Of a DNA stretch of 64,000 bases, positions 18,577 to 19,150 are shown one piece after another (the first letter of the stretch is position 1; every line of letters begins with the position of its first letter). A program made the translations under genes and the position numbers. The notes under the pieces were generated by a model that worked only from the letters and a program-made list of their open reading frames with translations, was not told where the DNA came from and did no database searches. Source of the stretch: a virus; IMG/VR virus record IMGVR_UViG_3300019487_000004, positions 1 through 64,000 of that record, one strand, 5' to 3'.

Positions 18577-18710
18577 GCGGGGTACAGGAGTCGAACCTGT
18601 CGTCGTGTAGATGCGTATGAGGTGATCGGCGTGCCGATCGAGGATGCGCATCGGAATGTCTTTTGACTTTCGTGGAAGGAAAGCGCCAGCACCGGCCGGC
18701 AAGACCCCGC
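18577..18710 (-). tRNA. tRNA-Gly(UCC)-like gene with a 61-nt structured insertion between anticodon stem and T arm (element A1)
   Basis: Acceptor GCGGGGU/ACCCCGC, discriminator U, anticodon loop CUUCCAC, T arm ACAGG-UUCGACU-CCUGU. The insertion contains GAUGCG..GAUCGG-CACG-CCGAUC..CGCAUC-UACA. Confidence 0.65.
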
Positions 18711-18720
18711 GTAAATGATC

Positions 18721-18850
18721 GAAGCGGCCGAGGAGCACAGCGTAGTGTTCACCTTGCGGTGCGCACGGGATTCGAACCCGTAACATTCAGCTCCATAGGC
18801 TGTCGGTCTACCATTGACCTAGCGTGTTCGCTGGGCGGTGTGGCCGCTTC
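18721..18850 (-). tRNA. tRNA-like element B2: permuted-type acceptor (GCAA cap, split 4/5), anticodon loop CUAUGGA
   Basis: D arm GGUC-AAUGGUA-GACC, T arm ACGGG-UUCGAAU-CCCGU. Positions 66-72 (GCGCACC) pair with CGC upstream plus GGUG after GCAA. Flank helices are CAGCG/CGCUG and GAAGCGGCC/GGCCGCUUC. Confidence 0.55.
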
Positions 18851-18855
18851 GTTCG

Positions 18856-18985
18856 TCGGGGAACTAGGAGTCGAACCTAGCTGTCGTGTAGATGCAGTCG
18901 AGTGATCGACATGTCGATCGAGAGGCAGCATCGAAGCTTTTATGCTTGATCCAATATCAAGTGCCGCCCACGCGGCTTTTCCCCG
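18856..18985 (-). tRNA. tRNA-like gene with a 58-nt insertion (element A2), anticodon loop UAUUGGA (UUG if read canonically)
   Basis: Acceptor CGGGGAA/UUCCCCG, discriminator A, T arm CUAGG-UUCGACU-CCUAG. Insertion GAUGC..GAUCGA-CAUG-UCGAUC..GCAUC-UACA. Confidence 0.55.
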
Positions 18986-19027
18986 AGAAGTGTTTTCGTC
19001 GTCGTCAGCTATTCGGTTGTCAGGCGG

Positions 19028-19150
19028 CGGTGGAACTTGGAATCGAACCAAGTCAACTTGTAGACGATCAAGAGTGACGAGCGTGCTCGTCGAGGGCGAA
19101 CGTCGGAACAACGGCTTTCACACCGTCTGGCCTCCAAGGCCAATTCCACC
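19028..19150 (-). tRNA. tRNA-like gene with a 51-nt insertion (element A3), 8-nt anticodon loop UGUGAAAG (GAA/Phe-like)
   Basis: Acceptor GGUGGAA/UUCCACC, discriminator G, D arm GGCC-UUGGA-GGCC, T arm CUUGG-UUCGAUU-CCAAG. Insertion GACG..GACGAG-CACG-CUCGUC..CGUC-UACA. Confidence 0.55.

What the first reader, a model, noticed from the sequence alone, without database searches (positions are those of the whole stretch)
18577..19150. Intron-like hairpin between anticodon stem and T arm in three tRNA genes
Elements at 18577-18710, 18856-18985 and 19028-19150 have perfect 7-bp acceptor stems (GCGGGGU/ACCCCGC, CGGGGAA/UUCCCCG, GGUGGAA/UUCCACC). They carry 61, 58 and 51 extra nt exactly between the 3' strand of the anticodon stem and the variable loop. 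Each insertion ends in UACA, followed by 5-6 nt (CGACG, CGACAG, AGUUGA) and the T stem, so precise removal restores a normal variable loop. The inner hairpins (4-nt loops CACG, CAUG, CACG) covary. The position and size differ from group I tRNA introns and from class II long variable arms, which are about 13-21 nt.
Basis: partly seen in the sequence, partly recalled or inferred. Interest (0 to 1): 0.85.

Follow-up and report, generated by a model that had tools for sequence, protein, structure and literature searches.

The report
Phage tRNAs with a conserved fifth arm
Three phage tRNA-like genes carry a 42-43-base conserved stem-loop module between the anticodon arm and the T arm; the module defines a large, apparently undescribed family of five-armed, capped or circularly permuted phage tRNAs, and it looks like a built-in functional arm rather than an intron.

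Summary
On the minus strand, 18710-18577, 18985-18857 and 19150-19029 fold as cloverleaves with perfect 7-bp acceptor stems. They carry 61, 58 and 51 extra nt ending in UACA. The window is a GC-rich T4-like phage, and the three genes sit in one promoter-driven operon of five tRNA-like genes.

The "insertion" is a module: proximal helix, internal loop with invariant CUC, distal helix, and a return strand ending ACA-N-G. It covaries strongly across 30 copies from seven phages. The same module forms the closing stem around the two neighbouring tRNA-like genes, whose acceptor stems are capped by GNRA loops, and around the operon leader. In related phages it carries the RNA termini of circularly permuted tRNA genes, many with N-CCA inside the acceptor cap. 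A pattern scan found 52 distinct five-arm copies across the loci held, most of them on large IMG/VR phage contigs.

I read the insertion as a retained docking arm, not a classical intron. I found no group I core, no bulge-helix-bulge motif and no ribozyme match. The module persists where the tRNA body has decayed. Excision and ligation are not excluded. The function is inferred, most likely handling or protection of phage tRNAs against tRNA-targeting host defences.

The parts
19253..19281 (-). Operon promoter: -35 TTGACA (19281-19276), 17-nt spacer, -10 TAGAAC (19258-19253)
   Evidence: Read directly. The same TTGACA-N17-TA(G/C)NNN arrangement precedes the orthologous clusters in L171, L151, L004, L176, L178 and L181. 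The consensus scan did not call it because its -10 ends in C.
19158..19243 (-). Leader element. The module is present without a tRNA body: P1 CCCGCGCU/AGCGCGGG, P2 GUCGACCU/AGGUCGAC, loop GCACUC, junction GACA-AGC. It encloses only a GNRA hairpin (19215-19204) and a second hairpin (19202-19185).
   Evidence: MFE fold. Nearly identical in L171. Covarying orthologues in L151 and L178.
19029..19150 (-). E3, a five-arm tRNA-like gene with acceptor GGUGGAA/UUCCACC and a degenerate 8-nt anticodon loop. Its orthologue in L171 has CUAUCAA (anticodon AUC).
19063..19104 (-). E3 fifth arm: outer helix GACGU/UCGUC, loop ..CCCUC / ACUCU.., inner hairpin 19091-19076 with loop CACG. It is followed by UACA at 19062-19059.
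18857..18985 (-). E2, a five-arm tRNA-like gene with acceptor CGGGGAA/UUCCCCG. The anticodon loop UAUUGGA (A33, UUG) is conserved in three phages while its stem covaries.
   Evidence: ARAGORN calls tRNA-Gln(UUG) after the arm is deleted in silico.
18891..18932 (-). E2 fifth arm: outer helix GAUGC/GCAUC, loop ..CUCUC / ACUCG.., inner hairpin 18919-18904 with loop CAUG. It is followed by UACA at 18890-18887.
18720..18851 (-). tL2 unit. The module acts as a closing stem: P1 18851-18842 pairs with 18729-18720, P2 18836-18829 pairs with 18742-18735, with loop UCCUC and entry AACA. It surrounds a tRNA body (18824-18762, anticodon AUG) that has a 3-bp acceptor remnant plus a 4-bp GCAA-capped hairpin (18761-18750).
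   Evidence: Rfam tRNA 46 bits over model positions 5-66 only. MFE fold. Module alignment. Re-joining GGUG to CGC in silico gives an ARAGORN tRNA-His(AUG) call.
18577..18710 (-). E1, a five-arm tRNA with acceptor GCGGGGU/ACCCCGC, U73, a 6-bp D stem with a 4-nt loop, and anticodon loop CUUCCAC (UCC). It carries the full E. coli-type tRNA-Gly identity set: G1-C72, C2-G71, G3-C70, U73, C35, C36.
   Evidence: (tRNA-Sec model 31 bits with a 63-nt insertion). The same identity set is present in L181 E-b. The identity rules are from my own knowledge.
18610..18652 (-). E1 fifth arm: outer helix GAUGCG/CGCAUC, loop CAUCCUC / ACCUCAUA, inner hairpin 18639-18624 with loop CACG. It is followed by UACA at 18609-18606.
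18441..18574 (-). tL-Ile unit. The module acts as a closing stem: P1 18574-18564 pairs with 18451-18441, P2 18557-18551 pairs with 18464-18458, with loop CUCCUC and entry UACA. It surrounds a tRNA body (18546-18483, anticodon GAU) with a 3-bp acceptor remnant plus a GCAA-capped 4-bp hairpin (18482-18471). A U-run follows at 18439-18435.
   Evidence: ARAGORN and Rfam. MFE fold..

Best explanation
E1, E2 and E3 belong to a large, previously undescribed family of phage-encoded five-armed tRNAs and tRNA mimics.

It consists of an A/C-rich tether ending in YCC, a 4-8-bp proximal helix, an internal loop whose outgoing strand ends in invariant CUC and whose return strand starts with A, a distal helix opening with G-C, and a return strand leaving the proximal helix through N-ACA-N-G. 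I propose that the module stays in the mature RNA as an oversized variable-region arm.

The five tRNA-like genes, preceded by the module-bearing leader, are transcribed from one sigma-70-type promoter. E1-E3 have ordinary open acceptor stems. They would be matured by RNase P, 3' trimming and CCA addition. E1 keeps every tRNA-Gly identity element and is probably chargeable.

The module is a docking site for one common factor that handles every RNA of the operon. It is attached at the variable region in E1-E3 and at the acceptor end in the capped neighbours and the leader. In permuted relatives it carries the chain termini. There, RNase P opening of an N-CCA-containing cap would give a two-piece tRNA clamped by the module.

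The most likely biological role is to protect phage tRNAs from, or to neutralise, host nucleases that attack tRNA variable loops, anticodon loops or 3' tails.

Shown: the structure, the covariation, the invariant motifs, the three topologies, the family size, and the CCA enrichment. Inferred: retention of the arm, the existence of a factor, the anti-defence role, and aminoacylation.
For: The structure is real and conserved.

CUC, ACA and the G two positions after ACA are invariant in all 30 modules of alignment A3. Most of the non-window copies came in through neighbouring proteins rather than through RNA patterns; the L004 and L151 copies, 6 of the 30, came in through RNA pattern scans.

The same module closes tL2, tL-Ile and the leader in the window and their orthologues.

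The module is kept where decoding features are lost. Examples are the E3 8-nt loop, the window leader without T or D arms, and L181 E-a and L038 without an anticodon arm.

The distal loop is interchangeable (CAYG, GNRA, UUCG) and is open in permuted copies. It is therefore only a cap.

The tether length varies from 4 to 14 nt.

A pattern scan recovered 52 distinct five-arm copies across 33 of the loci held, most of them IMG/VR contigs of 40-530 kb, with up to 6 per locus. Of these, 17 of 52 encode CCA after the discriminator, against about 1/64 expected.

About 22 permuted copies were found, and 8 of them have N-CCA directly after the 3' acceptor strand inside the cap.

In-silico un-permuted or arm-deleted versions are called as tRNAs by ARAGORN.

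Precedents exist. M. smegmatis YrlA has a capped 7-bp acceptor that is cut by RNase P and receives CCA in vivo (PMC4201824). Retron-Eco7 cleaves tRNA-Tyr in the variable loop, and a phage tRNA-Tyr with a longer variable loop neutralises it (PMC12673091). Phage tRNAs evade anticodon nucleases through loop changes (PMC10264068). A Spinach aptamer inserted in the V loop of an E. coli tRNA is reported to leave it active; this is from memory and is unverified.
Against: No expression or end-mapping data exist, so retention of the arm is not shown.

No candidate binding protein was identified. The conserved neighbours are a VWA protein, an unknown 363-aa protein, a JAB protein, a 125-aa protein and a ThiF/E1-like protein. 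None has a demonstrable RNA link.

E2 (A33) and E3 (8-nt loop) would decode poorly. tL2 and tL-Ile cannot be aminoacylated as drawn. The family may therefore not act in translation at all.

The module occurs inside genes, around genes and at permutation junctions. That distribution is also what a processing or splicing signal would show, as the archaeal BHB motif does.

G-U against A-C counts in the module helices are 9 against 6. This does not by itself prove an RNA-level rather than a DNA-level constraint.
Confidence: 0.5

Rival explanations
1. Splicing or processing signal; this is the reader's intron made concrete. In this reading the module is a bacterial-virus analogue of the archaeal bulge-helix-bulge motif. 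A phage or host endonuclease recognises the helix-loop-helix and cuts at ACA| and on the outgoing strand. A healing-and-sealing RNA repair set then ligates the ends. This would remove the arm from E1-E3, join the ends of permuted genes, and release or circularise the module-enclosed genes.
For: One motif is used in three contexts: inside genes, at permutation junctions, and flanking genes. The BHB motif is used in exactly this way; that comparison is from my own knowledge.

The invariant ACA sits exactly at the module-body boundary.

Deletion or un-permutation yields callable tRNAs.

For tL2 and tL-Ile, the 3 bp plus the 4-bp cap add up to exactly 7 bp.

RNA-repair domains are present in these phages: HAD_SAK_2 in the window at 27477-28028, and 2H-SAK, HAD_SAK and a P-loop kinase in L180-L182.
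Against: No endonuclease or ligase was found among about 45 window ORFs scanned.

The proximal helix varies from 4 to 8 bp, so a BHB-type fixed ruler is impossible.

The 5' tether varies from 4 to 14 nt. A cut that leaves a 4-5-nt variable loop would have to be measured from the tRNA body and not from the motif.

Some copies keep an extra small V hairpin beside the module (E1' in L004; L185, L198 and L223).

The module is conserved in the leader, where nothing is left to splice.

Protein-dependent tRNA splicing is unknown in bacteria.
Confidence: 0.2
2. Non-decoding tRNA mimics, in the manner of Y RNAs or decoys. None of the operon's RNAs works in translation. The tRNA-shaped body attracts tRNA-binding enzymes or nucleases, and the module binds a partner protein. 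The RNAs would then act as decoys, sponges or tethers.
For: The acceptor stems of tL2 and tL-Ile are permanently capped by GNRA loops. Many permuted relatives have bare GAAA, UUCG or GAAU caps.

Non-U33 loops recur. A33 occurs in UAUUGGA, UAAGGAA and UAUUCAA, and G33 occurs in CGGUAAA in three phages. Some copies lack anticodon arms altogether.

The architecture parallels YrlA, which combines a capped acceptor, T and D arms and a protein-binding terminal stem, and which is also found in phages (PMC4201824).

T4 encodes stable tRNA-like RNAs of unknown function at the end of its tRNA cluster.
Against: E1 and its L181 counterpart keep the complete tRNA-Gly identity set and a canonical loop.

CCA is strongly enriched after the discriminator (17 of 52) and inside caps.

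The anticodon repertoire (UCC, UUG, AUC, AUG, AUU, UAA, UAU, ACG and others) looks like a set that reads A/U-ending codons for a GC-rich host.

No Rsr/TROVE gene, no GNCGAAN0-1G motif, and only 20 bits on the YrlA model against a threshold of 69.
Confidence: 0.2
3. A neutral or selfish insertion, or decaying pseudogenes. A palindromic mobile DNA element landed in the variable region of tRNA genes and is merely tolerated.
For: The inner hairpin of E2 is a perfect DNA palindrome. G-U against A-C counts in the module helices are nearly balanced at 9 against 6. E3 has a broken anticodon loop.
Against: Every helix pair shows compensatory change, while CUC, ACA and G stay invariant on one strand only.

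The attachment geometry is fixed in more than 50 copies across dozens of divergent phages.

No copies occur outside the tRNA context in the window.

The module is retained while tRNA parts decay, which is the opposite of what junk would show.
Confidence: 0.05

Closest known systems
Class II tRNAs, tRNA-Sec and allo-tRNAs (Mukai et al. 2017, PMC5389517)
   Same: An extra arm sits between the anticodon stem and the T arm. The D stem is long (5-6 bp) with a 3-5-nt loop, as in tRNA-Sec and allo-tRNA. These tRNAs occur in soil bacteria and phage tRNA clusters. The Rfam tRNA-Sec model aligns E1 end to end (31 bits).
   Different: Known variable arms are single hairpins of about 13-21 nt. Here there is a 42-43-nt two-helix module with conserved loop motifs, hung on 4-14-nt and 9-11-nt single strands. 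The acceptor/T configuration is 7/5, not 8/5, 8/4 or 9/3. The score is below the Sec threshold of 47 bits. The anticodons are UCC, UUG and AUC, not UCA.
Bacterial Y RNAs of the YrlA type (Chen et al. 2014, PMC4201824)
   Same: The logic is modular: a tRNA-like domain plus a conserved terminal stem. The acceptor stem is capped, as in tL2, tL-Ile and the permuted relatives. M. smegmatis YrlA has its 7-bp cap cut by RNase P and receives CCA, which is the fate I infer for N-CCA caps. YrlA RNAs are also encoded by phages.
   Different: No Rsr/TROVE gene was found and the GNCGAAN0-1G motif is absent. The terminal stem leaves from the variable region and not from the anticodon-stem position. A full anticodon arm is present. 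The Rfam YrlA model gives 20 bits against a threshold of 69. E1-E3 have open acceptor stems.
Circularly permuted and split tRNA genes, and BHB introns at non-canonical positions (red and green algae, Thermofilum, Nanoarchaeum; reviewed in PMC3978253 and PMC4090602)
   Same: One RNA motif accompanies interrupted, permuted and flanked tRNA genes. Relatives of this phage have genuine 3'-half / cap / 5'-half gene order, with CCA in the cap.
   Different: The setting is a bacterial virus. There is no BHB geometry, because the helix length is variable. No EndA was found. The break point is in a large variable-region arm. Ligation may not be needed, because the module can clamp two pieces. I found no report of permuted tRNA genes in phages in the held literature.
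T4 species 1 and 2 RNAs (rnaC, rnaD)
   Same: These are stable RNAs of unknown function encoded at the end of a T4-type phage tRNA cluster. rnaC folds with a canonical T arm, an acceptor-like stem and long extra hairpins.
   Different: No sequence similarity was detected. The CUC and ACA module is absent. The arrangement of arms is different.
Phage tRNAs that neutralise tRNA-targeting defences (SP15 tRNA-Tyr against Retron-Eco7, PMC12673091; anticodon-loop variants, PMC10264068; PMC11555353)
   Same: These are phage tRNAs with altered variable or anticodon loops whose alteration is what defeats a host nuclease. The family here shows both an altered variable region and frequent non-U33 or A34 loops.
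   Different: Known cases differ from host tRNAs by a few nucleotides. Here there is a whole conserved structured domain. No defence system or nuclease is linked to it yet.

Membership tests
Canonical bacterial tRNA (Rfam RF00005 / ARAGORN) | Cloverleaf with a 7-bp acceptor and a 5-bp T stem, a T loop of the UUCRANY type and GG in the D loop | tested here: met
   99.6% of cells paired in 12 copies. The T loop is UUCGAYU and the D loop contains GG in E1-E3.
Canonical bacterial tRNA (Rfam RF00005 / ARAGORN) | 7-nt anticodon loop with U33 and a purine at position 37 | tested here: inconclusive
   E1 meets it (CUUCCAC). E2 has A33 (UAUUGGA). E3 has an 8-nt loop. Family-wide, U33 occurs in 21 of 36 copies and R37 in 32 of 36.
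Canonical bacterial tRNA (Rfam RF00005 / ARAGORN) | Variable region of 4-5 nt or a single arm of about 13-21 nt, and detection above the model threshold | tested here: not met
   The variable regions are 56-66 nt. ARAGORN does not call them and RF00005 does not hit them.
tRNA-Sec / allo-tRNA | Acceptor/T configuration of 8/5, 8/4 or 9/3 | tested here: not met
   The configuration is 7/5 in E1-E3 and in 12 of 12 aligned copies.
tRNA-Sec / allo-tRNA | Long D stem with a tetraloop-sized D loop | tested here: met
   The D stems are 5-6 bp with 3-5-nt loops.
tRNA-Sec / allo-tRNA | Score at or above the Rfam RF01852 gathering threshold, and UCA anticodon for Sec | tested here: not met
   31 bits against 47, and only for E1. 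The anticodon is UCC.
Group I intron in a bacterial tRNA gene | Insertion in the anticodon loop with a P1-P9 catalytic core of about 200 nt or more | tested here: not met
   The insertion is 51-61 nt and lies 3' of the anticodon stem. No intron family matches at E<=10.
Archaeal/eukaryal protein-spliced tRNA intron (BHB) | Bulge-helix-bulge: two 3-nt bulges separated by exactly 4 bp at the exon-intron junctions | tested here: not met
   Read directly. The 3' exon nucleotides (CGACG and the like) have no partner in the 5' exon. The helix next to the junction is 4-8 bp and variable.
Archaeal/eukaryal protein-spliced tRNA intron (BHB) | Splicing endonuclease and RNA ligase encoded by the virus or host | tested here: inconclusive
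   None was found among about 45 window ORFs. Only 64 kb of a 138-kb contig is visible, and the host is unknown. An HAD_SAK_2 repair phosphatase domain is present.
Self-cleaving ribozymes (hammerhead, twister, pistol, hatchet, HDV-like and others) | Match to a family covariance model | tested here: not met
   cmscan of 18300-19400 at E<=10 returns no ribozyme family.
Y RNA / YrlA | Adjacent Ro60/Rsr (TROVE) gene | tested here: not met
   No TROVE hit was obtained. The 643-aa VWA protein that I suspected shows only VWA and belongs to a very large family of about 630-aa phage VWA proteins.
Y RNA / YrlA | GNCGAAN0-1G motif in the 5' strand of the terminal stem, and a score at or above the RF02553 threshold | tested here: not met
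   The motif is absent from the closing stems. The score is 20 bits against 69.
Y RNA / YrlA | tRNA-like domain with a loop-capped acceptor stem | tested here: inconclusive
   tL2 and tL-Ile in the window meet it (GCAA caps). E1-E3, the subject of the finding, do not, because their acceptor stems are open.
Circularly permuted tRNA gene | Gene order of 3' part, then linker or cap, then 5' part, which re-joins into a canonical tRNA | tested here: not met
   E1-E3 are collinear. Relatives meet the feature (L181 four copies, L176, L185, L189 and others). It is formally met by tL2 and tL-Ile with the junction at nt 4/5, but their caps are GNRA loops without CCA.
T4 rnaC / rnaD | Sequence or structural homology to the T4 RNAs | tested here: not met
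   blastn of 18400-19320 against 50,697 phage records hits only short pieces, 6-7% of the query, centred on the tRNA-Ile body. The rnaC fold lacks the module.

The most novel reading that the evidence does not exclude
Large phages run a protein-dependent tRNA cut-and-join system built on this helix-loop-helix module. In that reading the module is a bacterial-virus counterpart of the archaeal BHB splicing system. It is excised from five-arm genes, which would be true tRNA splicing in a bacterial setting. It also joins the ends of circularly permuted tRNA genes. The sealing step would use the phage's healing-and-sealing RNA-repair enzymes.

Even without ligation, the permuted N-CCA-capped relatives would be the first circularly permuted tRNA genes in viruses or bacteria and, after RNase P opening of the cap, two-piece tRNAs.
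Probability: 0.2. Interest if true: 0.95.

Novelty: new variant of a known kind. Interest (0 to 1): 0.8.

Why it matters
Standard tRNA finders miss these genes. ARAGORN called 1 of the 5 tRNA-like genes here and none in L151, L171 or L172. The tRNA complement of many large phages is therefore under-annotated.

The family shows that the tRNA fold tolerates a conserved extra domain of about 45 nt in nature. It also shows that the fold can be circularly permuted around that domain.

The invariant CUC and ACA motifs predict a dedicated, still unknown partner, which could be a binding protein or a nuclease-ligase set.

If the arm shields phage tRNAs from, or decoys, tRNA-targeting immunity, it is a new counter-defence principle. 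If it is excised, it is the first protein-dependent tRNA splicing in the bacterial world.

The module is also a ready-made natural scaffold for tRNA engineering, for example split or tagged tRNAs.

Tried and rejected
1. Ro60/Rsr partner. The 643-aa VWA protein (28634-30565) has no TROVE signal by Pfam at E<=10, NCBIfam or PDB phmmer. It belongs to a family of more than 1400 phage VWA proteins of about 630 aa. Rejected as evidence for a Y-RNA system.

2. A profile of the conserved 363-aa neighbour against PDB and Pfam gave nothing credible. The 264-aa neighbour is a JAB/JAMM protease next to a ThiF/E1-like protein. This points to a ubiquitin-like or sulfur-carrier system. A link to tRNA thiolation is only a thought.

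3. BHB motif at the junctions: cannot be drawn.

4. Kink-turn: the 'GA' that opens the distal helix covaries as a Watson-Crick pair (GA/UC to GG/CC), so it is not a sheared G-A pair.

5. Anti-Shine-Dalgarno mimic (GAUCACCUC in E1): not conserved in E2, E3 or the orthologues.

6. CRISPR-repeat mimic: the inner stems differ among copies within one phage.

7. MazF-type cleavage sites (ACA, CUCCU): the surrounding context is not consistently conserved, and this cannot be tested here.

8. A-to-I editing to repair the A-C oppositions at acceptor positions 1-4 of the capped genes. Both strands are simply (AC)n-rich, so I dropped this.

9. Strict big-arm pattern scans of the viral, metagenome and genome collections returned almost only chance hits plus L004 and L151. 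The family was opened up through neighbouring proteins and then through a looser pattern.

10. The consensus promoter scan found nothing. The promoter call rests on comparative conservation.

11. G-U against A-C counts do not settle strand specificity for the module.

12. Structure prediction of neighbouring proteins was not attempted.
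Full report
OBSERVATION

- E1 is 18710-18577.
- E2 is 18985-18857.
- E3 is 19150-19029.

Each has a perfect 7-bp acceptor stem, a 5-bp T stem with a UUCGAYU loop, and a compact D arm (5-6 bp, 3-4-nt loop containing GG). Each also has an anticodon arm and 61, 58 or 51 extra nt ending in UACA. These are followed by CGACG, CGACAG or AGUUGA and then the T stem.

Each sequence folds on its own into a cloverleaf plus one extra arm, with z about -3.2. A motif spanning the arm and T loop occurs three times in the window against 0.02 expected.

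ARAGORN and the Rfam tRNA model miss all three. The tRNA-Sec model aligns E1 end to end at 31 bits, below its threshold of 47, with a 63-nt insertion.

Only E1 has a canonical anticodon loop (CUUCCAC, anticodon UCC). E2 has UAUUGGA with A33. E3 has an 8-nt loop.

CONTEXT

The window is a phage with about 63% G+C. It has rIIA/rIIB homologues and a T4-group VWA protein. No close relative exists in GenBank phages. It lies on a 137,932-bp metagenomic contig.

The three elements belong to one minus-strand cluster, 19281 to about 18435. In order it contains:
- a promoter, TTGACA-N17-TAGAAC;
- a structured leader;
- E3;
- E2;
- a tRNA-like gene with anticodon AUG (tL2);
- E1;
- a tRNA-like gene with anticodon GAU (tL-Ile).

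The same promoter geometry and gene order recur in related phages.

COMPARATIVE EVIDENCE

Orthologous clusters were reached through the small protein and the ThiF-like and VWA genes upstream and through DNA patterns.

On 12 five-arm copies from seven phages, the cloverleaf is 99.6% paired and 18 of 23 pairs change on both sides.

A looser arm-plus-T-loop pattern recovered 52 distinct five-arm copies across 33 of the loci held. Most are IMG/VR contigs of 40-530 kb, with up to six copies per locus. Nearly all have perfect 7-bp acceptor stems. Of the 52, 17 encode CCA after the discriminator.

Their anticodons cover AUC, UCC, UUG, GUA, GAA, CAC, ACG, UGG, CAU and others.

E1 and its L181 counterpart keep the complete tRNA-Gly identity set: G1-C72, C2-G71, G3-C70, U73, C35 and C36. 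The identity rules are from my own knowledge.

THE 'INSERTION' IS A SHARED MODULE

The arm consists of these parts, in order:
- a tether ending in YCC;
- a proximal helix;
- an internal loop whose outgoing strand ends in CUC and whose return strand begins with A;
- a distal helix opening with G-C;
- a return strand that leaves the proximal helix as N-ACA-N-G.

The two neighbouring genes tL2 and tL-Ile have only a 3-bp acceptor remnant followed by a 4-bp GCAA-capped hairpin. That totals 7 bp. Each is enclosed by a long-range two-helix stem with the same internal loop (UCCUC or CUCCUC) and the same ACA entry. The operon leader has the module too, but it encloses only two small hairpins.

In relatives (L176, L181, L185, L189 and others), the module carries the 5' and 3' ends of circularly permuted tRNA genes. 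Their order is ACA-AGC.., T arm, 3' acceptor strand, cap, 5' acceptor strand, D arm, anticodon arm, tether, module.

When the outgoing and returning strands of 30 modules of all three topologies are aligned, CUC, ACA and the following G are invariant. The two helices are 96% and 96.6% paired, and every pair covaries. No shuffle out of 500 reaches the observed values, and slid-partner controls are 28-43% paired.

The distal loop is CAYG in the window's lineage. Elsewhere it is mostly GNRA or UUCG, and it is absent in the open forms, so it is only a cap.

Of about 22 permuted copies, 8 have N-CCA immediately after the 3' acceptor strand inside the cap. Others have bare tetraloop caps.

Re-joined or arm-deleted sequences are called by ARAGORN as tRNA-Met, Phe, Tyr, Pro, Arg, His, Ile, Gln, Asp, Gly and Val.

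WHAT THIS MEANS FOR THE INTRON READING

Nothing that defines a known intron class is present.
- No group I core and no ribozyme family matches.
- No bulge-helix-bulge geometry can be drawn.
- The helix next to the junction is 4-8 bp and the 5' tether is 4-14 nt, so there is no fixed ruler.
- The module is conserved where there is nothing to splice (the leader) and where decoding has decayed (the E3 loop, and copies without anticodon arms in L181 and L038).
- Some copies carry an ordinary small variable hairpin as well as the module.

I therefore read the segment as a retained, selected fifth arm.

The alternative is that the module is a cut-and-join signal used inside genes, at permutation junctions and around genes, as BHB is in archaea. 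It is not excluded, and it is the most exciting reading. These phages carry RNA-repair domains (HAD_SAK_2 in the window; 2H-SAK and a kinase in relatives). No endonuclease or ligase was found.

MECHANISM

Shown:
- the structure, its conservation and the invariant motifs;
- the three topologies;
- the CCA enrichment.

Inferred:
- E1-E3 are matured at open acceptor ends by RNase P, 3' trimming and CCA addition.
- E1 is glycylated.
- The module binds one common factor.
- In permuted N-CCA-capped relatives, RNase P opens the cap to give a two-piece tRNA clamped by the module. A capped 7-bp acceptor that is cut by RNase P and extended with CCA is documented for M. smegmatis YrlA (PMC4201824).

For the biological role, I favour protection from, or neutralisation of, tRNA-targeting host immunity. 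Two precedents support this. Retron-Eco7 cuts tRNA-Tyr in the variable loop, and a phage tRNA-Tyr with a longer variable loop neutralises it (PMC12673091). Phage tRNAs also escape anticodon nucleases through loop changes (PMC10264068).

The family's frequent A34-U35-N anticodons and non-U33 loops fit either that role or simple supply of tRNAs that read A/U-ending codons in a GC-rich host.

COMPARISON WITH KNOWN SYSTEMS AND NOVELTY

The nearest known things are:
- class II, Sec and allo-tRNA variable arms (same position and same D-arm style, but single short hairpins and different acceptor/T geometry);
- YrlA Y RNAs (same modular logic and capped acceptors, but no Rsr gene, no binding motif, and a different exit point);
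- permuted and split tRNA genes of algae and archaea (same gene topologies, but BHB-dependent);
- T4 species 1 RNA, a tRNA-like stable RNA of unknown function in the T4 tRNA cluster.

The elements fail the membership tests for each of these. A full-text search found no report of permuted tRNA genes in phages, within the limits of that library.

I rate the finding as a new variant of a known kind, namely tRNA and tRNA mimics. Its family-level consequences are of high interest.

LIMITS

- No expression data are available.
- The module and cloverleaf alignments were hand-built to the proposed structure.
- The motif-based IMG/VR set is biased toward CUC and ACA. The 30-module set is less so, although the window, L004 and L151 copies were found by, or match, the RNA patterns.
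- Only 64 kb of the contig could be searched for partner proteins.
- The conserved neighbouring block (VWA protein, 363-aa protein, JAB, 125-aa protein, ThiF) may reflect shared ancestry of the phages rather than function.

Noticed in passing
window 18720-18851 and 18441-18574 (minus strand): The two 'ordinary' tRNA hits between the flagged elements are not ordinary. Each has only 3 acceptor base pairs and a GCAA-capped 4-bp hairpin that completes a 7-bp closed acceptor stem. Each also has a long-range closing stem. Joining nt 4 to nt 5 in silico gives tRNA-His(AUG) and tRNA-Ile(GAU).
   Followed up: yes
L181:15100-16290 (+); L176:4735-4893; L185:6087 and 7206; L189:6236; also L194, L196, L198, L200, L201, L210, L211, L215, L219, L223, L225: Circularly permuted tRNA genes occur in related phages, with the break point in the big arm. 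Eight of about 22 have N-CCA plus a 3-19-nt linker in the acceptor cap. The rest have bare tetraloop caps. I found no report of permuted tRNA genes in viruses or bacteria in the held literature.
   Followed up: partly
L151:5040-5533 (minus strand): There is an array of at least 8 copies of a unit of about 33 nt (CAAUGUCUGCGGAAGCGACCUUGGCUUCCGAC) that forms a 7-bp hairpin with compensatory variants. The copies are separated by unique 19-43-nt spacers. The array lies directly upstream of a truncated T-arm/acceptor fragment and the tRNA-like operon. It is CRISPR-like in layout but has irregular spacer lengths.
   Followed up: no
L181:3461-4642: A related phage encodes its own EF-Tu with all three domains. 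It also has more than 35 tRNA genes and RNA-repair domains (2H-SAK and a zeta-toxin/AAA_33 kinase).
   Followed up: no
window 19916-20494, 22075-22452, 22507-23301, 24968-26059, 28634-30565 (minus strand): A conserved gene block lies next to the tRNA-like operon in 17-23 of 41 related loci. It comprises a ThiF/E1-like protein, a 125-aa protein, a JAB/JAMM protease (HxHP..S..D motif), an unknown 363-aa protein and a VWA protein of about 630 aa. This is a ubiquitin-like or sulfur-carrier type system. Any link to tRNA, for example thiolation, is untested.
   Followed up: partly
window 18824-18762; L004, L171, L178, L151 and L181 clusters: Many anticodons in the family are A34-U35-N (AUG, AUC, AUU), which are G34-to-A34 versions of the queuosine-family tRNAs. 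Several loop types systematically lack U33: A33 in UAUUGGA, UAAGGAA and UAUUCAA, and G33 in CGGUAAA in three phages.
   Followed up: partly
L192:1925-2058 (+): A five-arm copy with an otherwise canonical D arm has the anticodon loop AUUUAGA (anticodon UUA), which would make it an ochre-suppressor-like tRNA.
   Followed up: no
L081 about 7000-7100 (+), L087, L024, L097: Other phage tRNA genes have 17-45 extra nt in or next to the anticodon loop. They are candidate short introns or expanded loops and are unrelated to the module.
   Followed up: no
window 27477-28028 (minus strand): This protein carries the HAD domain of 'Swiss-army-knife' RNA-repair proteins (PF18143, E = 1e-26). Homologues are in L180 and L182.
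   Followed up: partly
window 19306-19650 and 19647-19919 (minus strand): Two small ORFs sit between ThiF and the operon promoter. The proximal one is Cys-rich (CRDKHEPCH...CGEECCIPTCDEPCC) and conserved at 54% identity in L171. The 3' end of its gene overlaps a conserved inverted repeat (UUGCCACU / AGUGGCAA) just upstream of the -35 box.
   Followed up: no
L179:2909-3047 (T4 rnaC): T4 species 1 RNA folds with a canonical T arm (CCGGG-UUCGAAU-CCCGG), an acceptor-like stem and two long hairpins (z = -4.6). It is a classical, still unexplained tRNA-like RNA in a phage tRNA cluster.
   Followed up: partly
L004:115-267 (minus strand): The E1 orthologue in L004 carries both the big module and a regular class-II-like variable hairpin (GGAACGAC-GCAA-GUCGUUUCC) after UACA. 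It therefore has six arms in all, and it encodes G-CCA.
   Followed up: partly
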